From a virus: DNA of 64,000 bases. Positions 11,773 through 62,473 of the stretch are shown here, piece after piece (position 1 is the stretch's first letter; the number at the start of each line of letters is the position of its first letter). The stretch lies in the UHGV virus genome UHGV-0371537; one strand, given 5' to 3'. The notes under the pieces were generated by a model that was not told the origin of the DNA, did no database searches, and saw nothing but the letters and a program-made list of their open reading frames with translations. A program made the translations under genes and the position numbers.

Positions 11773-12387
11773 ATGACGATGACAACGTTGAAGGCCATGG
11801 CCTTGTCCGTGACCTTTACCATTGCCAGCGGGAATGTGCACGCTTCCCAAAATACAAGTCAATGTGTTTATGATTTCTCTGAGCAACAACTTAATACGCT
11901 GGCAACTGCCTATCACATAGGCAAGACACAAGATCTTGGTTACACTCTGGCCGCCATATCTTGGCGAGAGAGCCGCGCTGGTGAAGATGTAGTGTCAATG
12001 CGCTATGGACTCAAGGCGGCCAACATGGGAGCCTTTCAGAACAAGGTGAAGACAGTTGGTGATCGCGAAGGTTGTAAGAATCGCAAGTGCTATGCCAATG
12101 TCGCCATAAAGTTGCTGACCGACCAAGAATATGCCGCGCAAGCCGCCCTCGAAGAGATGCAGTTCTGGCTGACCTATCACAAGCAGAATGTACGCAAATC
12201 CCTCTCCTCTTACAATGCTGGCTTCGCCCGTAATCCCGCATCGAACGCTTATGCCGCTGACGTCGTGAAGAAAGCTAAATATCTTCAGAAATGTGTGTCC
12301 TTCAAAGGCCGGACCATCTCCGAGGTAGATCCTCAGGTGATCGCCATGAACAAGCGCACGATAGAGAAACTGAAGAGGACAAGATAA
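11773..12387 (+). CDS. secreted protein with lytic-transglycosylase (SLT)-like motifs
   Basis: N-terminal signal peptide (MTMTTLKAMALSVTFTIASGNVHA); E-S (ISWRESRAGE), G-x-x-Q (MGAFQ) and YNAG (SSYNAGFARNP) in SLT-like order. Confidence 0.4.
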   Translation: MTMTTLKAMALSVTFTIASGNVHASQNTSQCVYDFSEQQLNTLATAYHIGKTQDLGYTLAAISWRESRAGEDVVSMRYGLKAANMGAFQNKVKTVGDREGCKNRKCYANVAIKLLTDQEYAAQAALEEMQFWLTYHKQNVRKSLSSYNAGFARNPASNAYAADVVKKAKYLQKCVSFKGRTISEVDPQVIAMNKRTIEKLKRTR

Positions 12388-17319: not shown

Positions 17320-17376
17320 GTCAATACGAAATAAAGGCATATAATTTTGCTCATTATTCACCGAAAGGAAAGGACA

Positions 17377-17988
17377 ATGAGCAAAATCTTTACCCCGACA
17401 CATCGTGAAGGATGTGAGATCGCGGCCAACTACCTGCGCGGTCGCATGAACTGCGGCGCAGTCTTCATCGAACCAAACTCCTTCGACAACAAAGAATCGC
17501 CAGATGCCATCGGGTTTCGTTCAGGCGGGTGCTCTGTCCTGATGGAAGTGAAGGTGTCCCGCGCCGACTTCCTCACCGACAAGAAGAAGCCCCATCGGAT
17601 GGACCCCACAACAGGGATGGGCGCATACCGCTTTTATGTCTGCCCTCAGGATGTGATCAGGGTTGAAGACCTGCCACCAAAGTGGGGGTTGTTCTACTTC
17701 ACACCTCGCAAGTCCCTGATGCCCGTTCATGTGCCGGACATGCAATACTCCTCGTTGTCATCACCAGAGCATTATCAGAAGTATCTTGATGAACAGATCA
17801 AGAGAGGAAGAACCGTCACCCGGCATATGCGCAGCTACATGGAACTTCTCGACGGCTTCGCCCACTTTGAGCGCAACACGGCTGGAGAACAGAATATCCT
17901 GTATGGGGCTTGGCGGCAACTGTGTATAGCTCAAAGTCGTGGTGTAGACTATACTGTGACCGAAGTGTTCCAGAGGCCGAAGATCTAA
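17377..17988 (+). CDS. PD-(D/E)XK nuclease-like protein
   Basis: Core ...PDAIGF...SVLMEVKVSRADF... fits a PD-(D/E)xK pattern; AAAGGAAAGGA SD. Confidence 0.4.
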   Translation: MSKIFTPTHREGCEIAANYLRGRMNCGAVFIEPNSFDNKESPDAIGFRSGGCSVLMEVKVSRADFLTDKKKPHRMDPTTGMGAYRFYVCPQDVIRVEDLPPKWGLFYFTPRKSLMPVHVPDMQYSSLSSPEHYQKYLDEQIKRGRTVTRHMRSYMELLDGFAHFERNTAGEQNILYGAWRQLCIAQSRGVDYTVTEVFQRPKI

Positions 17989-20504: not shown

Positions 20505-20512
20505 TTTAAATA
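20505..20512 (+). promoter_or_regulatory. T4-type late promoter variant (TTTAAATA) upstream of endolysin
   Basis: TAAATA core about 30 nt upstream of ATG 20543. Confidence 0.45.
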
Positions 20513-20542
20513 CCTTCGCATTCATTGCGGAGGTATTTTCTT

Positions 20543-21337
20543 ATGGCCATTCTAAAACTTGGCAACCGTGGCACTGAAGTGAAGGCACTTCAGGATAGCC
20601 TCAACAAAATCGGCTTCACCCTCGTCGCCGACGGCATCTTTGGTAAGGCAACAGAGAACGCTGTCAAGACTGTTCAGGCGGGTGCGGGGCTTGTCATCGA
20701 CGGTATCGTGGGTCCAAAGACCTCCTATGCTATTCGCAACGCTGGAGACGCCCATCAAGATCACCTGACCGAGGCTGACCTTATCGATGCGGCTAATCAG
20801 CTTGGAGTTGATCTCGCCTCTGTAAAGGCGGTCAACCAGGTGGAATCCCGTGGCACTGGCTTCACCAAGTCAGGTAAGATCAAGACATTGTTCGAACGCC
20901 ACATCATGTACAAGAAGCTCATGGCGAAGTTCGGCCAGGCTCGGGCGAATGCTATAGGGCAGATGTACCCGACGTTGGTCAGTCCTTCTGCAGGTGGGTA
21001 CACGGGCGGCGATGCAGAACTGGATCGACTTCATGCGGCCATCAACATCGACGAGGATTGTGCGTACGAGAGTGCCTCATACGGTCTCTTCCAGATCATG
21101 GGCTTCAACTGCCAGGTCTGTGGGTATGCCAATGCCAAGGAGATGTTCAATGACTTCCTGACAGGCGAACGTGCTCATCTGATGGCATTCGTGAAGTTCA
21201 TCAAGGCCGATGCCAAGCTCTGGCAGGCTCTGAAGGACAAGAACTGGGCTGAGTTTGCGCGGCGCTATAATGGTCCGGCGTATGCCAAGAACCAGTACGA
21301 CACGAAGCTCGCTGCTGCATACAAGAGTTTCAGTTAA
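20543..21337 (+). CDS. endolysin: N-terminal peptidoglycan-binding domain + C-terminal muramidase-like domain
   Basis: N-terminus LKLGNRGTEVKALQDSLNKIGF...DGIFGKATENAV (PG_binding_1-like); C-terminus ...YGLFQIMGFN...FARRYNGPAYAKNQYDTKLAAAY (DUF3380-like). Confidence 0.7.
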   Translation: MAILKLGNRGTEVKALQDSLNKIGFTLVADGIFGKATENAVKTVQAGAGLVIDGIVGPKTSYAIRNAGDAHQDHLTEADLIDAANQLGVDLASVKAVNQVESRGTGFTKSGKIKTLFERHIMYKKLMAKFGQARANAIGQMYPTLVSPSAGGYTGGDAELDRLHAAINIDEDCAYESASYGLFQIMGFNCQVCGYANAKEMFNDFLTGERAHLMAFVKFIKADAKLWQALKDKNWAEFARRYNGPAYAKNQYDTKLAAAYKSFS

Positions 21338-26777: not shown

Positions 26778-26804
26778 AAGCCCCTCAATGAGGGGCTTTA
26801 CTTT
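26778..26804 (+). terminator. rho-independent terminator
   Basis: GCCCCTC-aat-GAGGGGC hairpin followed by TTTACTTTTG. Confidence 0.6.
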
Positions 26805-26825
26805 TGAAACACCCTCCCCTATACT
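26797..26825 (+). promoter_or_regulatory. sigma70-like early promoter TTTACT-N17-TATACT
   Basis: -35 TTTACT (26797-26802), 17-bp spacer, -10 TATACT (26820-26825); same architecture as 13056..13084. Confidence 0.55.
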
Positions 26826-26875
26826 TCCCAATAATTCATTGGCATTCGCCACAAATTGAAAGCGGGAACTATATC

Positions 26876-27337
26876 ATGACAAACAAAGTGCTCACCAACC
26901 CACTGCACAACTTCGGTTACATTCAGCTTCCTCTGGTGATTGATACCCTATACGCTGATGACAAAGAGGAGATCTGTTGGTCTCCAACCGCTCTGATTGA
27001 ACGCGAAATCTTCAAGTCTGTTGTTGATGTTATGTTCCGTATCGGTCGCAATGCACCTCTGGTCTACCTCGGCAAAGCAACTGAACTGAAGACAAGCCAC
27101 AACGAACGCTTCCTGCGCATTGATACTACCGGGTGCTCCCAGCAAGACTTCAACACACTGCGCAATTATGTTCTGGTCAACCGCCCGGTATCCCAGCATC
27201 GTCCTTACCTGACGTCAATGCACATAGACAGTTTCATCACTGACGTACACCTGCAGGCTGAAACCCTCCATGAAGAGGAAACAGGCCGAGCTATCGACAC
27301 TGTCTTAAATATGGTTGTGATCACCCTCGCGGAGTAG
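26876..27337 (+). CDS. hypothetical protein
   Basis: ATG 26876 preceded by the conserved TTGAAA..GGAACTATAT leader; track ORF starts earlier. Confidence 0.45.
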   Translation: MTNKVLTNPLHNFGYIQLPLVIDTLYADDKEEICWSPTALIEREIFKSVVDVMFRIGRNAPLVYLGKATELKTSHNERFLRIDTTGCSQQDFNTLRNYVLVNRPVSQHRPYLTSMHIDSFITDVHLQAETLHEEETGRAIDTVLNMVVITLAE

Positions 27338-28113: not shown

Positions 28114-28187
28114 TACAACACTCCTCTCAGGGTGCCTAGAAGGAGCAGAGAGGAGCGTTGCCCCTCTGCCACTAAACTTATACCAAC

Positions 28188-32157: not shown

Positions 32158-32208
32158 TCCGGCGTAAATAGCCCATACACCAATGAAACTTCGTTATGGG
32201 CTATTTAC

Positions 32209-32799
32209 ATGAAATATTGCGGAATCGACTACTCATATGGTTGTCCATCCCTGTGCTTCTGGGATGACAAAGACCCTCTTGATTTTGACCACCTGCGCTT
32301 CTACGCATATTACACTGTGGAGAAGTACTGCTCTCAAATCCGTCAGAACATCCTTATCATGAAACAGCCGAAGTGGGAGACTCCAGAAGAGCGCTTCTAC
32401 AACATCTGTAAATGGGCTGAGGCTGTCCTGTTGACCGAGAAACCGGATGTGATCACTCTTGAGGGGTATGCTATGGGCAACTCCAAGAACTCCAACAACA
32501 TCTGCCAGACAGCAGAGAACACTTCTCTATTGAAGCAAGTTCTGCGTCGCCATAACCTGGAGTTTCAGATTGTGACACCTTCTCATGTTAAGAAGATGTT
32601 TACAGACAAAGGCAACGCCGATAAGATCGCCATGATCGCCCACTTCGAAACCCTGTTCAATGTTAATATGCGCGGTATAATGGATATGTTGGAAGTTAAG
32701 GATCCCAAGCCTATCGATGACCTCGTGGATTCGTTTGCAATCATGTCTTGCGGTTCTTACTTCATTGAGAATAATCCAGACTTCAACAGAGGTGTATGA
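32209..32799 (+). CDS. putative RuvC-like (RNase H-fold) Holliday junction resolvase
   Basis: Acidic residues in RuvC-like order: CGIDYS near N-terminus, ITLEGYAMG, DDLVDSFAIM near C-terminus. Confidence 0.35.
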   Translation: MKYCGIDYSYGCPSLCFWDDKDPLDFDHLRFYAYYTVEKYCSQIRQNILIMKQPKWETPEERFYNICKWAEAVLLTEKPDVITLEGYAMGNSKNSNNICQTAENTSLLKQVLRRHNLEFQIVTPSHVKKMFTDKGNADKIAMIAHFETLFNVNMRGIMDMLEVKDPKPIDDLVDSFAIMSCGSYFIENNPDFNRGV

Positions 32800-33840: not shown

Positions 33841-33858
33841 CGGGGTATAATTACCCCG
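33841..33858 (+). repeat. TATAAT-containing palindrome (CGGGGTA-taat-TACCCCG) upstream of gp32
   Basis: Perfect 7-bp inverted repeat around TAAT, followed by CTTTAAAG; member of a recurring class. Confidence 0.5.
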
Positions 33859-38636: not shown

Positions 38637-38668
38637 GGGGCTGCTATAATAGCAGCTCCTTTTGTTTA
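38637..38668 (+). terminator. rho-independent terminator with TATAAT in the hairpin
   Basis: GGGCTGCTAT-A-ATAGCAGCTCC hairpin followed by TTTTGTTTATT; TGcTATAAT (extended -10-like) inside the stem. Confidence 0.6.
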
Positions 38669-45429: not shown

Positions 45430-45458
45430 TTCAATAAAGCAGATCATAGGGTATAATT
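45430..45458 (+). promoter_or_regulatory. sigma70-like promoter TTCAAT-N17-TATAAT inside a palindrome
   Basis: -10 TATAAT (45453-45458) lies in the loop of palindrome AGATCATAG/CTATGATCT (45441-45467). Confidence 0.45.
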
Positions 45459-45490
45459 CTATGATCTGAATGTTAAACCAGGAGCACATC

Positions 45491-46179: not shown

Positions 46180-46208
46180 AAGCCCAGTCAAGTACTGGGC
46201 TTTTTAAT
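46180..46208 (+). terminator. rho-independent terminator
   Basis: GCCCAGT-caagt-ACTGGGC hairpin followed by TTTTT. Confidence 0.65.
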
Positions 46209-46217
46209 TTCAATAAC

Positions 46218-46246
46218 TTTACTTTCAAGAATAAAGCGCCTATTAT
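46218..46246 (+). promoter_or_regulatory. sigma70-like early promoter TTTACT-N17-TATTAT
   Basis: -35 TTTACT (46218-46223), 17-bp spacer, -10 TATTAT (46241-46246). Confidence 0.55.
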
Positions 46247-46289
46247 TTAATCTCTATTGAAGAGTTGTTACTAAATCATGAGGCTGGAA

Positions 46290-47483
46290 ATGAACGCCAA
46301 AACATTCAACATTCCGATCGACAATGAAGGGCTAGTGGTTGAGCGACTGAAAAAGCTCGAGCGCACTGCTGTCCGTCTGGGTGTACCATTCCCGACTGTG
46401 ACTTATGGTGAACCCTTCAAGACCCACACCCGTGACTTCACTGGTGAGATCCTCACTCACTGGTGGAAGCCCGTCACCCTCGAAGGTGAAGGCATTGACC
46501 GCCCGGTGTCATACGGTGGTTGGAAAATCATTGGTCAGTTCAATCACGAATACCCAAAGGTCATTCTGAACCGACTGTCCGACAATATCAATGCTGACTT
46601 CATCCGTCGCTTCGAGACAGAGAATGTCTCTTGGTGCCAGCATTGCAACCTGCTCATCAATCGCAAGAACACATATGTGATTGAAAACGAGGAAACGCAC
46701 ACTCAGATGCTGATCGGCAGCACCTGCATGCATCATTATGTGCCTCATCAGAAGTCCCTTGACGCGATCATGTCTTACTATCTGGGAATCCAGGAGTTCT
46801 TCATGCCGGATGAAGATGATCCAGAGGGCATCTATCGCGTTCGTAACGAACAATTCACAGATACCCACAATTACCTGCGTGCGTGCTTCCAGGTGATGCT
46901 GTCTGGCGTAGACATCAAGTCTGAACTATTTGACAAAGTCCTGGGCTATGTCCGGTCTTATCAGAAACCAAAAGCAGGTTCCGATGAAGAGCATTTCGTA
47001 TACAAGGCACACGAGTACCGTGAAGACGCCGAGTCAGAAATGTACCACATGAAGCTCTTCATCAGTGCGCTGTCTGAATCCAATGAATTCAACGTTCGCC
47101 TGAAACGCATGTGTGAACCGGGCTACCACCTGATCAAGGACGATAACACAGTCCGCTGGGGTGCCAAGAAGTATTACGATTACATCCATCGCCCTCGCGC
47201 CGACCGCAAGACAGAGAACAAATGGGTGGGCGAAGTCGGGGAGATGCTGGAAGTACAAGTCAGGTTCGACAAGCGCGTCTTCCTCTTCTCCAATGAATAC
47301 GGTGACAGCTACCTGTTTACTTTCAAAACAGTAGAAGGCAATACAATTACCTGGAAGACCTCTTGTATGGATACAGAGTTCTTGCAGGGCGATATGATCA
47401 TCCGTGGTCGTGTCAAAGAACTGACTGAGTACAACGGTGTTAAACAAACTCAGGTCACCCGAGCCAAATTGAGGAAATTATGA
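46290..47483 (+). CDS. hypothetical protein (Cys/His-rich centre)
   Basis: ATG 46290 (MNAKTF...); no confident family. Confidence 0.5.
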   Translation: MNAKTFNIPIDNEGLVVERLKKLERTAVRLGVPFPTVTYGEPFKTHTRDFTGEILTHWWKPVTLEGEGIDRPVSYGGWKIIGQFNHEYPKVILNRLSDNINADFIRRFETENVSWCQHCNLLINRKNTYVIENEETHTQMLIGSTCMHHYVPHQKSLDAIMSYYLGIQEFFMPDEDDPEGIYRVRNEQFTDTHNYLRACFQVMLSGVDIKSELFDKVLGYVRSYQKPKAGSDEEHFVYKAHEYREDAESEMYHMKLFISALSESNEFNVRLKRMCEPGYHLIKDDNTVRWGAKKYYDYIHRPRADRKTENKWVGEVGEMLEVQVRFDKRVFLFSNEYGDSYLFTFKTVEGNTITWKTSCMDTEFLQGDMIIRGRVKELTEYNGVKQTQVTRAKLRKL

Positions 47484-47593
47484 ATTTGATTGAGTTTGTT
47501 CTGAAGTCGTTCGCCTTTGGTCTGATAGCATGCGGAGTGATTACAGCTATGCTTGTCATCATAGCTCTGATCATCCCCTTTAAGAGGAAATAG
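47480..47593 (+). CDS. small hydrophobic peptide (37 aa), not in ORF track
   Basis: ATGA overlap with upstream stop; MNLIEFVLKSFAFGLIACGVITAMLVIIALIIPFKRK is a single TM helix. Confidence 0.3.
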   Translation: MNLIEFVLKSFAFGLIACGVITAMLVIIALIIPFKRK

Positions 47594-47595
47594 AG

Positions 47596-47757
47596 ATGAA
47601 ACGTGAAATCATGGATGTGTATGATCCAGGGTCTTGTTGTCCCGGTCATGACAAGTATCCATCCGATACTTACAAGAATCGACGTTCCAAAGCGCAACGC
47701 TCCAAGAGTATTAAGAAGGAGCATCGCCACGCTCGTCGTGTAAGCGTCTGGGGCTGA
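47596..47757 (+). CDS. small basic protein (53 aa), not in ORF track
   Basis: AAGAGGAAA SD; MKREIMDVYDPGSCCPGHDKY... with Arg/Lys-rich tail. Confidence 0.3.
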   Translation: MKREIMDVYDPGSCCPGHDKYPSDTYKNRRSKAQRSKSIKKEHRHARRVSVWG

Positions 47758-47794
47758 AAGCTGGCCTGAATACCATTACGTGGGAGGACTTTTG

Positions 47795-48007
47795 ATGGAA
47801 TGTTCATGCGGAGGGCAGGGCACAAGTGCTTACCTGCCATTTACCACCGTGAAGGAAGCCGAAGCCGCCGGGTTTGCCGTGGACAAGGCTCCCTGTGTAA
47901 TCGCCACGAAGGATTGCCCGTGCTGTAAGAGGCACTCTCAGGACGTCTTCTACGCCCCTGACGCGCGCCCAGCTACGGTCAACCTGCTTTCACTGATGAG
48001 GAAGTGA
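47795..48007 (+). CDS. small Cys-rich protein
   Basis: GGGAGGA SD; MECSCGG...CVIATKDCPCCKRH (putative metal-binding). Confidence 0.3.
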   Translation: MECSCGGQGTSAYLPFTTVKEAEAAGFAVDKAPCVIATKDCPCCKRHSQDVFYAPDARPATVNLLSLMRK

Positions 48008-48069
48008 AATGCGCAAGTATTTCAACTGGTTGTTGGCAAGATCCCGCAGCCAATAATCTATTGAAGTCC

Positions 48070-48102
48070 CCAGGGTTATAATAGCAACACATATAACCCT
48101 GG
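48070..48102 (+). repeat. palindrome CCAGGGTTATA-N11-TATAACCCTGG overlapping ligase SD
   Basis: 11-bp perfect inverted repeat; left arm contains TATAAT (48077-48082), right arm abuts SD GGAG (48101-48104). Confidence 0.5.
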
Positions 48103-48111
48103 AGACATTAC

Positions 48112-49536
48112 ATGATCCCTATCCTTGCAACAGTTCACCGACTTCGAGAAGCCAAAGGCAGCAATGCGAAGAAATCTGTGTTGACCGAAGCGTTCAAGAA
48201 TTGTCCAGACATGGCAGACTTCCTGCAATACGTCTATGACCCAATGACGTCGTTCTATCGGACCGAGTTGAAGCTCAGCGCGTATCCTCGCATGCTCGTC
48301 CGTGAGAAGACTGATGACATCAGCGAAGTCTATGACGTCCTCGATCAGATGGCGCAGCGTCTTGTCGGTGGTCAAAAGGCTGATGCCCTGCTGGCCTCTG
48401 TTGCTCTGAAGATGGACCCACAGTACCACGAACTCATTCAGATGATCCTGGACCGTGATATCAAGGCGGGTATTGCTGAGAAGGGCATCAACGCTGCATT
48501 CAACGCTGCTGGGGGTACAGGTCGCCTGATCAACATTCTTCCGTATCATCGTTATGACAACATGACGATTGACCTGCTGAAGAAGATGGACTTCAAGCGC
48601 GGTGTCTACAGCCAGCTGAAGTCAGACGGTATGTTCGCCAACATCATCTGTCGGTACAACAAAGAGCCTGAGATTCGCTCACGCTCCGGTTCCCTTATCG
48701 CAGGCGGTTCGGTCGACAATCTGTCACTGGTGTTCAAGGACATCATCTATGATACGGGGATTGGTGAGAGTGTATTCCATGGTGAACTGCTCGTTGTTGA
48801 CCTCAAGTCGAATTCTATCCTACCTCGCGCTGTCGGCAACGGTAAACTCAATAGCGTGATTCAGACTGGCGAACCCCTGGAAGATCGTTATCAGGTGATC
48901 TACCGGGTGTGGGATGTCGTACCTTATGAGAAGTGGTTCAACGCCGAGCGCGTGGGCACCCCGTATGAGCGCCGCTTCGATATCATCCAGCAACTGTTTT
49001 ACGAAGACGATGGTCTGGTGCAGGTGCAGGAAACTCGTGTTGTTCACTCATTTGCCGAAGCCGTCGACCACTTCAAAGACGCGCTGGCTCGTAAAGAAGA
49101 AGGCACGATCTGTAAGGCTGCTGACATGCCGTGGGAAGACGGGACTTCCTCGGAAGGTCTGAAGCTGAAGATGGAAGTGGAGTGCGACCTTGAAATTGTT
49201 GGTTTCAACGAGGCCGACAAGAAAGGCAAACACGCCAAGACCTTTGGCTCACTGCTTTGTAAGACTTCCGATGGCTTGCTTGTTGTTGGCGTCTCAGGGA
49301 TCTCAGATGAGCTGAGACTCCGTATGTGGGAGAACCAAGGCGACTACATTGGCAAGATCGCCGCAGTGCTCTCCAATGGCGTGCAGGATAAGACAGACGA
49401 TGCACTGAAGTCGCTGTTCCTGCCTCGCCTTGCTGAAATTCGTATTGACAAGAAAGTGGCCAACACGCTGGATGAAGTCTATGCGATTCAGAAAGCATAC
49501 ATCGAAAACATCGTATTCCTGTTGGAGTCTGCATAA
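48112..49536 (+). CDS. ATP-dependent DNA ligase (T4 gp30-like)
   Basis: Adenylation motif KSDG (QLKSDGMF), 474 aa. Confidence 0.8.
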   Translation: MIPILATVHRLREAKGSNAKKSVLTEAFKNCPDMADFLQYVYDPMTSFYRTELKLSAYPRMLVREKTDDISEVYDVLDQMAQRLVGGQKADALLASVALKMDPQYHELIQMILDRDIKAGIAEKGINAAFNAAGGTGRLINILPYHRYDNMTIDLLKKMDFKRGVYSQLKSDGMFANIICRYNKEPEIRSRSGSLIAGGSVDNLSLVFKDIIYDTGIGESVFHGELLVVDLKSNSILPRAVGNGKLNSVIQTGEPLEDRYQVIYRVWDVVPYEKWFNAERVGTPYERRFDIIQQLFYEDDGLVQVQETRVVHSFAEAVDHFKDALARKEEGTICKAADMPWEDGTSSEGLKLKMEVECDLEIVGFNEADKKGKHAKTFGSLLCKTSDGLLVVGVSGISDELRLRMWENQGDYIGKIAAVLSNGVQDKTDDALKSLFLPRLAEIRIDKKVANTLDEVYAIQKAYIENIVFLLESA

Positions 49537-55859: not shown

Positions 55860-55870
55860 GGTCTCAGCCC

Positions 55871-55878
55871 TTAAATAG
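55871..55878 (+). promoter_or_regulatory. late promoter variant (TTAAATAG), plus strand
   Basis: TAAATA core about 31 nt upstream of ATG 55910. Confidence 0.45.
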
Positions 55879-55892
55879 ATAGAGTGTTATGG

Positions 55893-55900
55893 CTATTTAG
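55893..55900 (-). promoter_or_regulatory. late promoter variant (CTAAATAG), minus strand
   Basis: Reverse complement of CTATTTAG; about 33 nt upstream of start 55859; inverted-repeat partner of the plus-strand element. Confidence 0.45.
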
Positions 55901-55909
55901 GACTAAATT

Positions 55910-58336: not shown

Positions 58337-58406
58337 TTCCGGTTCCTCTTAATAAACTAAGGGGAAGTATATACTCCCCCTTCTTCAATAACCGCTGAAT
58401 CTTTAT

Positions 58407-62039: not shown

Positions 62040-62089
62040 TTGTTGTTACCAAACAAGGGGTCGAGGCGGTAATAATACCGCCTTTTTCT

Positions 62090-62473
62090 TCAATAGAGGT
62101 CTTCGGAAAAGAGTTCACGGAAAGGATTGGTTTTGAGGCGGACCTGGTTGATCTGTCCGGCTTCACGGGCTACGACGCAAGCCTCTTCACGAGTGAGGAA
62201 GTTCCCCTGATTGTCGATGAAGCCCTGCTCACGAGTATGAGTAGATTTAATGACGCCAGCCTCCTTCAGAATCTTGAGCTGGCTGTTCATGAATCGGCTA
62301 TGGTGTCGGTCAGCAACAACGATTACATCACCATATTTGTTTGCAGCAGCGACCACACGGCGCTCCCAAGCCCCTTCCGCAGGGAGGTCACGGGTGTACA
62401 GGGGAATCACAGTATCACCGATGGAGTCGCCATTCACCTGGGAGAATAATTTACCATCAGTGCCTGTTGGCAT
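62090..62473 (-). CDS. hypothetical protein
   Basis: ORF; hairpin GGCGGTA-ataa-TACCGCC just downstream. Confidence 0.4.
   Translation of the reverse strand: MPTGTDGKLFSQVNGDSIGDTVIPLYTRDLPAEGAWERRVVAAANKYGDVIVVADRHHSRFMNSQLKILKEAGVIKSTHTREQGFIDNQGNFLTREEACVVAREAGQINQVRLKTNPFRELFSEDLY

What the first reader, a model, noticed from the sequence alone, without database searches (positions are those of the whole stretch)
48070..48112. Palindrome upstream of DNA ligase carrying a TATAAT hexamer and abutting the Shine-Dalgarno
A perfect 11-bp inverted repeat (CCAGGGTTATA / TATAACCCTGG) sits immediately upstream of the ligase start. The left arm contains TATAAT and the right arm runs into the GGAG ribosome-binding site. 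A read-through transcript would fold the hairpin and partly occlude the SD, while a transcript starting at the embedded -10 would lack the left arm and leave the SD free. Similar transcript-dependent translation control is known for some T4 genes.
Basis: partly seen in the sequence, partly recalled or inferred. Interest (0 to 1): 0.5.

Follow-up and report, generated by a model that had tools for sequence, protein, structure and literature searches.

The report
Promoter-in-hairpin switch before phage ligase gene
Just upstream of the DNA ligase gene of this ViI-like (Ackermannviridae) phage sits a conserved hairpin that would hide the ribosome-binding site in RNAs read through from upstream, while a promoter-like TATAAT inside the hairpin would give short RNAs with a free site; this is a T4-style trick, here built on a different, unexplained promoter type and not yet tested by experiment.

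Summary
A perfect 11-bp inverted repeat (48070-48080 / 48092-48102, 11-nt loop) extends to 15 bp with one mismatch (48066-48106) and covers the whole GGAG. TATAAT (48077-48082) straddles the left arm and the loop. The ligase ATG is at 48112.

The window is an Agtrevirus (SKML-39-like). The 60-nt element is indel-free and syntenic before the ligase gene in Agtrevirus, Limestonevirus, Kuttervirus and Taipeivirus. TATAAT and the predicted start (A48089) are invariant, while the rest of the loop varies. Outer-stem changes are transitions that keep G.U pairs on the sense strand only.

Opening the ribosome site costs 12-21 kcal/mol in long leaders and 2.5-5 kcal/mol in leaders that start at the predicted start site.

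The same layout recurs before the endolysin gene, a RuvC-like resolvase gene and a hypothetical gene. The last two show compensatory changes.

The embedded promoter is not the family's late type, (C)TAAATA. It has no canonical -35. Instead it has a conserved TTGAAG box 10 nt upstream, a composite that recurs before rIIA and other genes.

Promoter activity and the two 5' ends remain untested.

The parts
48058..48066 (+). Conserved CTATTGAAG box (TTGAAG 48061-48066), at -31 to -23 from the predicted start and 10 nt upstream of TATAAT. Candidate upstream promoter element of a phage-specific class.
   Evidence: Invariant or nearly so in 16 variants. The composite ATTGAAG-N9-11-TAT[AT][AC]T occurs 4 times in the genome of relative pSal-SNUABM-02 against 0.05 expected, all in intergenic regions before genes. 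The relaxed form gives 7 against 1.5. At rIIA the box and its 10-nt spacing are conserved in four genera.
48066..48080 (+). Left (5') arm of the hairpin, GTCCCCAGGGTTATA.
   Evidence: Outer-arm variation among genera is limited to C/T and A/G transitions that keep pairing with the right arm in the sense RNA.
48077..48082 (+). TATAAT, a consensus -10 hexamer straddling the left arm and the loop.
   Evidence: Invariant in all 16 distinct variants, including the AAT part that is not needed for pairing. There is no TTGACA-like hexamer at 16-18 nt.
48081..48091 (+). Loop (11 nt). It contains the predicted transcription start A48089, 7 nt after the -10.
   Evidence: The loop is otherwise variable, with many transversions, but A32 and A35-C36 of the alignment (48086, 48089-48090) are invariant. 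The start position is inferred from the usual -10-to-start distance, not mapped.
48092..48106 (+). Right (3') arm, TATAACCCTGGAGAC, containing the Shine-Dalgarno GGAG (48101-48104).
   Evidence: Paired in the MFE and centroid structures of the long leader.
48112..49536 (+). ATP-dependent DNA ligase gene (474 aa), the regulated gene.
   Evidence: ORF; PF01068, E = 6e-14; annotated as DNA ligase / gp30 in relatives.
46180..46246 (+). Upstream terminator-like hairpin (46180-46202) followed by a sigma70-like promoter (TTTACT-17-TATTAT, 46218-46246). This is the likely source of transcripts that read through four small ORFs into the ligase leader.
   Evidence: LIMEstone1 annotates the homologous site as terminator plus putative promoter. 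No strong terminator is predicted between 46250 and 48066 on the + strand. Read-through itself is inferred.

Best explanation
The element is a composite promoter and translational gate for the ligase gene.

On RNAs that start upstream (read-through from the variable block of small early ORFs), bases 48066-48080 pair with 48092-48106. This buries GGAG in a roughly -19 kcal/mol stem, so 30S subunits cannot bind and ligase is not made from those RNAs.

RNA polymerase that initiates at the embedded promoter (CTATTGAAG box, 10 nt, TATAAT; start near A48089) makes an RNA that lacks the whole 5' arm. Its 22-nt leader has an essentially unstructured ribosome site and is translated.

Ligase output is therefore tied to one promoter and insulated from whatever is transcribed upstream.

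Shown here: the hairpin, its conservation, the energy asymmetry, the invariance of the -10 and the start site, and recurrence of the layout and of the box-N10-TATnnT composite.

Inferred: that the promoter fires, which factor reads the box, that read-through occurs, and the timing.
For: Structure:
- 15-bp stem with one mismatch. Hairpin dG is -16.5 to -23.1 kcal/mol in 11 variants from four genera.

Energetics:
- Forcing SD-2 to AUG+6 open costs 12.4-20.6 kcal/mol in long leaders and 2.5-5.2 kcal/mol in leaders that start at the predicted TSS, in every genus. The short-leader MFE is -2.1 kcal/mol, no better than shuffles.

Conservation:
- The 60-nt block is indel-free in 16 distinct sequences. 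Sequence upstream of it is unrelated between phages, and gene content there differs.
- TATAAT and A/C at the predicted +1/+2 are invariant inside a variable loop.

Strand asymmetry:
- At the four varying outer pairs, all 21 changed cells stay paired (G.U or compensated) on the sense strand and all 21 are mismatched on the antisense strand. Pair 18-46 runs A-U, G.U, G-C. Overall 92.9% of cells are paired on the sense strand against 86.3% on the antisense strand.

Promoter class:
- The box-N10-TATnnT composite is enriched and intergenic. It is conserved before rIIA in Agtrevirus, Kuttervirus and two Taipeivirus phages.

Same layout elsewhere in the family:
- Endolysin gene: TAAATA in the 5' arm and GGAGG in the 3' arm, conserved in four genera.
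- RuvC-like resolvase gene: late box in the 5' arm and the AUG in or beside the 3' arm, with a compensatory base-pair insertion.
- The 203-aa gene at 17377: TATAAT abuts the 5' arm and the AUG is in the 3' arm, with a U-A to C-G double change against Det7.

Precedent:
- T4 e, 49, soc and I-TevI. The e hairpin lowers lysozyme synthesis about 100-fold (PMC3014915).
Against: - There is no canonical -35 at 16-18 nt. The TTGAAG box is 7 bp too close for sigma70 region 4, so activity of the embedded promoter needs an unknown factor or an unusual mode of recognition.
- No TSS or RNA-seq data were found for this phage family.
- Covariation is statistically weak: shuffles reach the observed score in 115 of 500 trials, and there are only about 6 independent transitions, 5 of them compatible with the sense strand (binomial p about 0.1).
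- In Agtrevirus itself the stem has a C.A mismatch opposite the A of GGAG.
- The inner arms (GGGTTAT / ATAACCC) are invariant, which would equally fit a DNA operator.
- The box pattern was defined after three instances had been seen, so its enrichment statistics are partly post hoc.
- Ligase is a replication enzyme, so the benefit of silencing early read-through RNA is less obvious than for lysozyme.
Confidence: 0.55

Rival explanations
1. The element is a PeSL-like promoter/stem-loop cassette, and the overlap with the SD is incidental. The hairpin would mainly mark the end of the upstream transcription unit (RNA 3'-end stabiliser or attenuator) and serve as a recombination junction at the edge of a hyperplastic region, as proposed for the promoter-early stem-loops of T4-type phages. 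Translation of ligase would not be the selected function.
For: - Several other TATAAT or TATTAT hexamers in the window sit at the apex of hairpins, some followed by a U-tract: 38638-38660, 33842-33857, 58390(-), 62095(-).
- PeSL subclasses with a stem-loop overlapping the -10 are described (PMC2839356).
- Gene content immediately upstream of the element differs between relatives, while the element is the first conserved sequence.
Against: - There is no U-tract after the stem (CCCUGGAGACAUUACAUG), and the terminator scan does not flag it.
- The 3' arm is exactly the SD region in all genera. Outer 5'-arm substitutions keep pairing to it.
- The hairpin sequence is unique in the genome, unlike repeated PeSL motifs.
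- The ligase element is syntenic and vertically conserved, not mobile.
Confidence: 0.15
2. The ligase mRNA always carries the hairpin, because the start lies upstream, for example from the A/T-rich AATAAT at 48052-48057. The hairpin would then be a constitutive brake, or a target that is opened in trans: RNase III cleavage of the stem, a phage RNA-binding protein, or RegA-type control.
For: - An A/T-rich -10-like hexamer (AATAAT, GATAAT, TAGAAT) precedes the box in all genera.
- The embedded TATAAT lacks a -35.
- The family encodes a RegA homologue.
- Processing that frees a sequestered ribosome site is known from other phages (my own knowledge of lambda N and T7 RNase III sites; not tested here).
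Against: - The distance from the A/T-rich hexamer to the box varies by 0-6 nt, and no conserved -35 precedes it.
- This rival does not explain the invariance of the AAT of TATAAT and of the A-C 7 nt downstream inside a free loop.
- It does not explain the fixed 29-nt TATAAT-to-ATG distance, or the recurrence of box-N10-TATnnT at genes without such hairpins, such as rIIA.
- A 15-bp stem is short for RNase III.
Confidence: 0.12
3. The palindrome works on DNA as an operator. A dimeric phage or host protein would bind GGGTTAT-N13-ATAACCC, sit over the -10 and start site, and repress or activate ligase transcription.
For: - The inner half-sites GGGTTAT / ATAACCC are invariant in 15 of 16 variants. 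Their centres are about two helical turns apart.
- The palindrome overlaps the -10 and the predicted start.
Against: - It is a single site in a 161-kb genome.
- Invariance of the inner arms is already explained by the -10 plus the pairing requirement.
- Outer-arm substitutions break DNA symmetry but keep sense-strand RNA pairing.
- Analogous hairpins at four other genes have unrelated sequences but the same position relative to a promoter box and the SD or AUG. That points to an RNA-level logic rather than one binding protein.
Confidence: 0.1

Closest known systems
T4 genes e (lysozyme), 49 (endonuclease VII), soc and I-TevI: an RBS-sequestering hairpin with a promoter inside its 5' strand (reviewed in PMC3014915)
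   Same: - The hairpin pairs the SD or AUG.
- A promoter hexamer lies in the 5' arm or loop, so its transcripts lack the 5' arm.
- Upstream genes on the same strand supply read-through RNA.
- The leader from the inner promoter is short.
- In this phage family the endolysin and resolvase genes, functional counterparts of T4 e and 49, carry the same device with the family's late box.
   Different: - At the ligase gene the embedded hexamer is TATAAT with a TTGAAG box at -30, not the gp55-type late box (C)TAAATA / TATAAATA.
- The regulated gene is a replication enzyme. I know of no such control for T4 gene 30 (my own knowledge, not checked).
- Nothing has been shown experimentally.
PeSL (promoter-early stem-loop) cassettes of T4-type phages (Arbiol et al. 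2010, PMC2839356; Comeau et al. 2014, PMC4122927)
   Same: - An intergenic composite of a sigma70-like promoter and a stem-loop, which can overlap the -10.
- An A/T-rich stretch lies upstream.
- It sits at the border of a region whose small ORFs differ between close relatives.
   Different: - PeSL stem-loops act as terminators; this one has no U-tract and ends in the SD.
- PeSLs have canonical -35/-10 spacing; this element does not.
- PeSLs are repeated, similar sequences; this hairpin is unique in the genome and syntenically conserved across genera.
T4 middle promoters (MotA box at about -30 plus a sigma70 -10; sigma appropriation by MotA/AsiA)
   Same: A good -10 hexamer is combined with a conserved box centred near -27 to -30 instead of a -35. 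The composite is found before replication and rII-type genes.
   Different: - The box sequence is (A/T)TTGAA(G/A), not (a/t)(a/t)TGCTT(t/c)A.
- The spacing is 10 nt rather than 11-13 nt.
- ViI-like phages are reported to lack MotA and AsiA homologues (PMC3184105).

Membership tests
T4-type promoter-in-hairpin translational gate (e / 49 / soc / I-TevI) | A stable RNA helix that includes the Shine-Dalgarno sequence and/or the start codon | tested here: met
   The 15-bp stem covers GGAG. dG is -16.5 to -23.1 kcal/mol across genera. Opening cost is 12-21 kcal/mol.
T4-type promoter-in-hairpin translational gate (e / 49 / soc / I-TevI) | A promoter placed in the 5' strand or loop, so that its transcripts lack the 5' strand | tested here: inconclusive
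   Consensus TATAAT at 48077-48082 is invariant, with invariant A-C at the predicted start. The short leader is unstructured. There is no canonical -35, and promoter activity cannot be tested with these tools.
T4-type promoter-in-hairpin translational gate (e / 49 / soc / I-TevI) | The embedded promoter is a late (gp55-type) promoter | tested here: not met
   The family's late consensus, read from 15 upstream regions of structural genes, is (C)TAAATA. The ligase site has TTATAATAG.
T4-type promoter-in-hairpin translational gate (e / 49 / soc / I-TevI) | Longer upstream-initiated transcripts exist and are poorly translated | not testable with these tools
   Upstream same-strand ORFs, a predicted promoter at 46218 and no strong terminator before 48066 make read-through likely. 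No transcript data were found.
PeSL promoter/terminator cassette | A sigma70-like promoter with -35 and -10 at canonical spacing | tested here: not met
   The best -35-like hexamer (TTGAAG, 4 of 6) is 10 nt from the -10. Nothing better than 2 of 6 lies at 16-18 nt, and the promoter scan does not list the site.
PeSL promoter/terminator cassette | A stem-loop that works as a terminator or attenuator (GC-rich stem followed by a T-run) | tested here: not met
   The sequence after the stem is AGACATTACATG with no T-run. It is not listed by the terminator scan.
PeSL promoter/terminator cassette | Repeated similar copies that flank variable small ORFs | tested here: inconclusive
   It borders a variable ORF block, and the box-N10-TATnnT composite recurs. 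The hairpin sequence itself is unique.
Intrinsic (rho-independent) terminator | A hairpin followed directly by a U-tract | tested here: not met
Known structured RNA families (Rfam) | A match to a curated covariance model | tested here: not met
   No match at E <= 1 in 47800-48300 on either strand.
T4 MotA-dependent middle promoter | A MotA box (a/t)(a/t)TGCTT(t/c)A 11-13 nt upstream of the -10, with MotA and AsiA encoded by the phage | tested here: not met
   The box is CTATTGAAG at 10 nt. Absence of MotA and AsiA is taken from PMC3184105 and was not re-tested here.

The most novel reading that the evidence does not exclude
TTGAA(G/A)-N10-TAT(A/C/T)(A/C)T would be the missing early/middle promoter class of ViI-like (Ackermannviridae) phages. 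Host RNA polymerase would read it only with a still-unidentified phage factor, a functional analogue of MotA/AsiA sigma appropriation without sequence homology. The ligase hairpin would make ligase synthesis depend strictly on that class. Under this reading, promoter-in-hairpin gating is a genome-wide strategy of the family, used with two promoter classes: this one at the ligase gene and the 17377 gene, and the late box at the endolysin, RuvC-like resolvase and gp48-like baseplate genes.
Probability: 0.25. Interest if true: 0.7.

Novelty: new variant of a known kind. Interest (0 to 1): 0.5.

Why it matters
The genome papers for ViI-like phages state that early and middle promoters could not be identified and that MotA and AsiA are absent (PMC3184105). 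The ligase leader offers a compact, conserved and testable case: one box, a fixed 10-nt spacer, a perfect -10, a predicted start and a built-in translational read-out.

If confirmed, it would do three things:
- Extend the classic T4 'translate only from the right promoter' device to a different promoter class and to a replication gene.
- Show that non-homologous lysis and resolvase genes in a distant phage family are gated in the same way as T4 e and 49.
- Give a handle for finding the factor that reads the TTGAAG box.

It also matters for engineering these phages, several of which are biocontrol or reporter phages. Inserting cargo upstream of such hairpins would not drive the downstream gene.

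Tried and rejected
- Canonical sigma70 promoter: the scan does not list the site, and the best -35 at 16-18 nt matches 2 of 6.
- Late promoter: rejected after deriving the family consensus (C)TAAATA from structural-gene upstream regions. TATAAATA occurs only twice in the window.
- Terminator: no U-tract.
- Sigma32-like promoter (CTTGAA ... CCCCATnT): considered because of TTGAAG, and rejected because there is no CCCCAT-type -10 at 13-15 nt (by reading the sequence).
- Known RNA family: no Rfam hit.
- Repeated element or operator regulon: no second copy of the arms in the window or in the 161-kb relative.
- More stem variants for covariation: pattern scans of metagenome and viral contigs returned 155 chance matches and only the variants already held, plus one with a loop change.
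- Covariation statistics: the shuffle control is not significant.
- More distant relatives: Erwinia phage phiEa2809 and Vibrio Ackermannviridae-like phages have the ligase gene but not the element.
- Literature on transcript 5' ends or RNA-seq for Ackermannviridae: nothing found. The 'Viunalikevirus' paper, which mentions conserved regulatory sequences, is not held.
- Existing annotation: the LIMEstone1 record and Table S2 of the Ag3 paper list no promoter before the ligase gene.
- Unpaired-probability measure: this was uninformative because a weak -2 to -4 kcal/mol local pairing also covers the SD in short leaders. It was replaced by opening energies.
Full report
**1. What is there**

Reading 47700-48500 and the repeat finder confirm a perfect 11-bp inverted repeat: CCAGGGTTATA (48070-48080) and TATAACCCTGG (48092-48102), separated by 11 nt. 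It extends to 15 nt per arm with a single C.A mismatch (48066-48080 / 48092-48106).

TATAAT is 48077-48082, four bases in the arm and two in the loop. GGAG is 48101-48104, so it lies inside the extended right arm. The 474-aa ORF starts at ATG 48112. It is an ATP-dependent DNA ligase (PF01068), and annotated relatives use the same start.

The window contains 4 perfect inverted repeats of at least 11 bp with 3-20 nt loops, against 0.23 expected. As RNA, the 101-nt sense leader folds at -23.5 kcal/mol, z = -3.65 against dinucleotide shuffles.

**2. Where the window comes from**

Megablast and blastn place the window in the Ackermannviridae (ViI-like phages). The nearest records are Agtrevirus: pSal-SNUABM-02 at 98.8% over the element, and SKML-39 at 100% over another 161-nt stretch.

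The neighbourhood is a replication block on the + strand: thymidylate synthase, UvsX, primase-helicase, small ORFs, ligase and the gp59-like loader. It converges on late tail genes.

**3. Conservation**

The element is found before the ligase gene in 229 phage records. I collected 16 distinct versions from Agtrevirus, Limestonevirus, Kuttervirus, Taipeivirus and an unclassified Aglimvirinae phage.

From 3 nt before the box to the ATG they are exactly 60 nt long, with no indels. Sequence upstream of the block is unrelated between phages, and the number of small ORFs between the 401-aa gene and the ligase gene differs. The element is therefore the first conserved sequence at the edge of a variable region.

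Erwinia phage phiEa2809 (ligase 53% identical) and Vibrio phages (ligase 36-39% identical) lack it.

Invariant or near-invariant blocks within the 60 nt:
- CTATTGAAG.
- GTC at the base of the stem.
- GGGTTATAAT.
- A32 and A35-C36 in the loop.
- ATAACCC-GGAG-C.

The rest of the loop changes freely, including transversions.

**4. RNA or DNA?**

The inner stem never varies, so it carries no information on this question. The outer stem does vary. The left-arm bases opposite the SD region change only by C/T and A/G transitions. Pair 18-46 takes the series A-U, G.U, G-C.

On the sense strand, all 21 changed cells at the four varying pairs remain standard pairs. On the antisense strand the same 21 cells are mismatches. 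The reverse holds only for the C.A mismatch of the four Agtrevirus rows. Overall 92.9% of cells are paired on the sense strand and 86.3% on the antisense strand.

This is what selection on the sense RNA predicts, and not what a symmetric DNA site predicts. However, it rests on roughly six independent transitions, five of them compatible (p about 0.1). The tool's shuffle control is not significant (115 of 500). I treat it as suggestive only.

Pattern scans of metagenomes and viral contigs added no new stem variants. There is no Rfam match.

**5. Energetics of long and short leaders**

| Measure | Value |
|---|---|
| Hairpin alone, 11 variants | -16.5 to -23.1 kcal/mol |
| Opening SD-2 to AUG+6, RNA starting 60 nt upstream, at the box, or at the stem base | 11.0-20.6 kcal/mol |
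| Same opening, RNA starting at alignment column 35 (48089) | 2.5-5.2 kcal/mol |
| Short leader MFE | -2.1 kcal/mol, no better than shuffles |

By the usual relation between RBS structure and initiation (my own knowledge of de Smit and van Duin), a 10-15 kcal/mol difference would mean near-complete silencing of the long form.

**6. Is the embedded TATAAT a promoter?**

For:
- It is a perfect consensus -10, invariant even where pairing does not need it.
- The purine 7 nt downstream is invariant in a free loop.
- The distance to the ATG is fixed at 29 nt, similar to other TATAAT-to-ATG distances in the window.

Against:
- There is no -35 at 16-18 nt.

Instead, TTGAAG lies 10 nt upstream. This composite is not a one-off.
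- ATTGAAG-N9-11-TAT[AT][AC]T occurs 4 times in the 161-kb relative against 0.05 expected. All four are intergenic and correctly oriented: before the ligase gene, rIIA, and genes 041 and 049.
- The relaxed form TTGAnn-N10-TA[TC][ACT]AT occurs 7 times against 1.5 expected.
- The window has further copies at 26804, 26856, 58390(-) and 62095(-).
- Before rIIA, both the box and the 10-nt spacing are conserved in Agtrevirus, Kuttervirus and two Taipeivirus phages.

The pattern was defined after I had seen three instances, so the first statistic is partly post hoc. The rIIA site and its cross-genus conservation were found afterwards.

The CBA120 paper says early and middle promoters of these phages could not be identified and that MotA and AsiA are absent. 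The LIMEstone1 record and Table S2 of the Ag3 paper list no promoter here.

**7. It is not a late promoter**

Upstream regions of 15 structural genes of the relative give the late box (C)TAAATA, 35-50 nt before the ATG. The ligase site (TTATAATAG) does not fit. So the T4 scheme, in which the late promoter sits inside the hairpin, is not copied literally at this gene.

**8. The same device elsewhere in the family**

A screen for stable hairpins ending at gene starts, followed by comparison with relatives, gave four further cases.
- Endolysin gene: TAAATA (20507-20512) lies in the 5' arm of a 13-bp stem (20508-20538) whose 3' arm holds GGAGG, with the ATG at 20543. It is conserved in Vi01, FKP14 and Ds16CZ, with two wobble-compatible changes in the 5' arm.
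- RuvC-like resolvase gene: (G/C)TAAATA lies in the 5' arm of a 14-bp perfect stem (32164-32208), with the ATG in or just after the 3' arm. The window has an extra G in the 5' arm matched by an extra C in the 3' arm, relative to Det7, May and phiDP23.1. This inserts a base pair and moves the usable start codon.
- The 203-aa gene at 17377: TATAAT (17340-17345) abuts the 5' arm of a 12-bp stem whose 3' arm contains the ATG. Det7 has GGTTATAAT and a U-A to C-G double change.
- The gp48-like baseplate gene (55863-55907, minus strand): CTAAATA lies at the 5' arm/loop junction and the SD in the 3' arm. I did not check conservation for this one.

T4 uses this device at e (lysozyme), 49 (resolvase), soc and I-TevI. 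Finding it at the endolysin and resolvase genes of a distant family, on non-homologous proteins, makes the RNA-gate reading of the ligase hairpin much more credible than it would be in isolation.

**9. Mechanism**

RNAs from upstream are silent for ligase, and RNAs from the embedded promoter are translated.

What this achieves is inferred. It could delay ligase synthesis until the box-dependent promoter class is active. Alternatively, it could insulate ligase output from the variable, frequently rearranged transcription units upstream.

Rivals:
- PeSL-like cassette with an incidental SD overlap (0.15).
- Hairpin present on all ligase mRNA and opened in trans (0.12).
- DNA operator (0.10).
- Residual probability for no function.

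**10. Comparison, novelty and score**

The element works like the T4 e/49 gate, but it fails the 'late promoter' feature. It also fails two defining PeSL features, canonical spacing and terminator function. I file it as a new variant of a known kind.

Interest is moderate (0.5). The device itself is textbook T4 biology. Its conservation at a replication gene, its coupling to an unexplained TTGAA-N10-TATAAT composite, and its family-wide use are new as far as I could check. They make a long-noted gap, the unknown early/middle promoters of ViI-like phages, directly testable.

Noticed in passing
window 20507-20545 (+): Endolysin gene. A late-promoter-like TAAATA (20507-20512) sits in the 5' arm of a 13-bp hairpin (20508-20538, about -17.5 kcal/mol) whose 3' arm contains the SD GGAGG; the ATG is at 20543. 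It is conserved in Kuttervirus Vi01, Taipeivirus FKP14 and Limestonevirus Ds16CZ, with wobble-compatible changes. The layout matches T4 gene e.
   Followed up: partly
window 32164-32211 (+): RuvC-like Holliday-junction resolvase gene. A perfect 14-bp inverted repeat (GTAAATAGCCCATA / TATGGGCTATTTAC, loop 17, -19.4 kcal/mol) carries the late box TAAATA in the 5' arm and abuts ATG 32209. Det7, May and phiDP23.1 have the same hairpin one base pair shorter, with the ATG inside the 3' arm. The window has a compensatory G/C insertion in both arms. The layout matches T4 gene 49.
   Followed up: partly
window 17340-17387 (+): TATAAT (17340-17345) abuts the 5' arm of a 12-bp perfect inverted repeat (ATTTTGCTCATT / AATGAGCAAAAT) whose 3' arm contains ATG 17377 of a 203-aa hypothetical gene upstream of the primase gene. 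Det7 keeps GGTTATAAT and the hairpin, with a compensatory U-A to C-G change.
   Followed up: partly
window 55863-55907 (-): In the divergent late region between the gp48-like baseplate gene and the head-completion gene, CTAAATA lies at the 5' arm/loop junction of a 12-bp hairpin whose 3' arm holds the SD of the baseplate gene. Conservation was not checked.
   Followed up: no
L033-L036 (pSal-SNUABM-02, whole genome); window e.g. 55878-55884 (-), 32165-32170, 20507-20512: The late-promoter consensus of this family reads (C)TAAATA, 35-50 nt before structural-gene starts (tube, sheath, scaffold, neck, wedge, tailspikes). Exact T4 TATAAATA is rare, with 2 copies in the window. The CBA120 paper said the late motif had not been identified.
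   Followed up: partly
window 26804-26825, 26856-26877 (+); 58368-58393 (-); 62072-62096 (-); L034 about 11995-12017 (-), before rIIA: There is a recurrent composite TTGAA(G/A)-N10(11)-TAT(A/C/T)(A/C)T in intergenic regions. The -35-like hexamer is 7 bp closer to the -10 than in sigma70 promoters. It is conserved before rIIA in four phages of three genera. It is a candidate phage-specific promoter class with an unknown reader.
   Followed up: partly
window 38638-38668 (+); 33842-33857 (+); 45440-45468 (+): TATAAT hexamers sit at the apex or in the loop of hairpins: GGGGCTGCTATAATAGCAGCTCC followed by TTTTGTTT (a terminator with an embedded -10, listed as Porf067 in the Ag3 paper), GGGGTATAATTACCCC, and CAGATCATAG-GGTATAATT-CTATGATCTG. 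These are PeSL-like promoter/terminator composites.
   Followed up: partly
window 28115-28161 (-): A very stable hairpin (-25.6 kcal/mol) has a 3' arm (CTGAGAGGAGTGTTGT) that contains the SD of the gp25-like baseplate wedge gene, 1 nt before the ATG. No promoter box is obvious in the 5' arm, and the close relative pSal-SNUABM-02 differs here.
   Followed up: no
window 46278-48007 versus L001, L003, L033: The block between the 401-aa gene and the ligase gene is hyperplastic. The window has 3 small ORFs, fGh-Ecl02 has 5, Se-B has 7, and pSal-SNUABM-02 has about 10 with the 401-aa gene apparently split. Some Kuttervirus records annotate a second small 'DNA ligase' ORF or homing endonucleases there. 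The true start of the 401-aa gene is probably ATG 46290, which has a GAGG 8 nt upstream, rather than 46278.
   Followed up: no
PMC3296691 (LIMEstone1 virion proteome): The LIMEstone paper reports one ligase peptide (2.95% coverage) in purified virions and speculates that ligase is co-injected. This is weak evidence, but it is relevant to when ligase is made.
   Followed up: no
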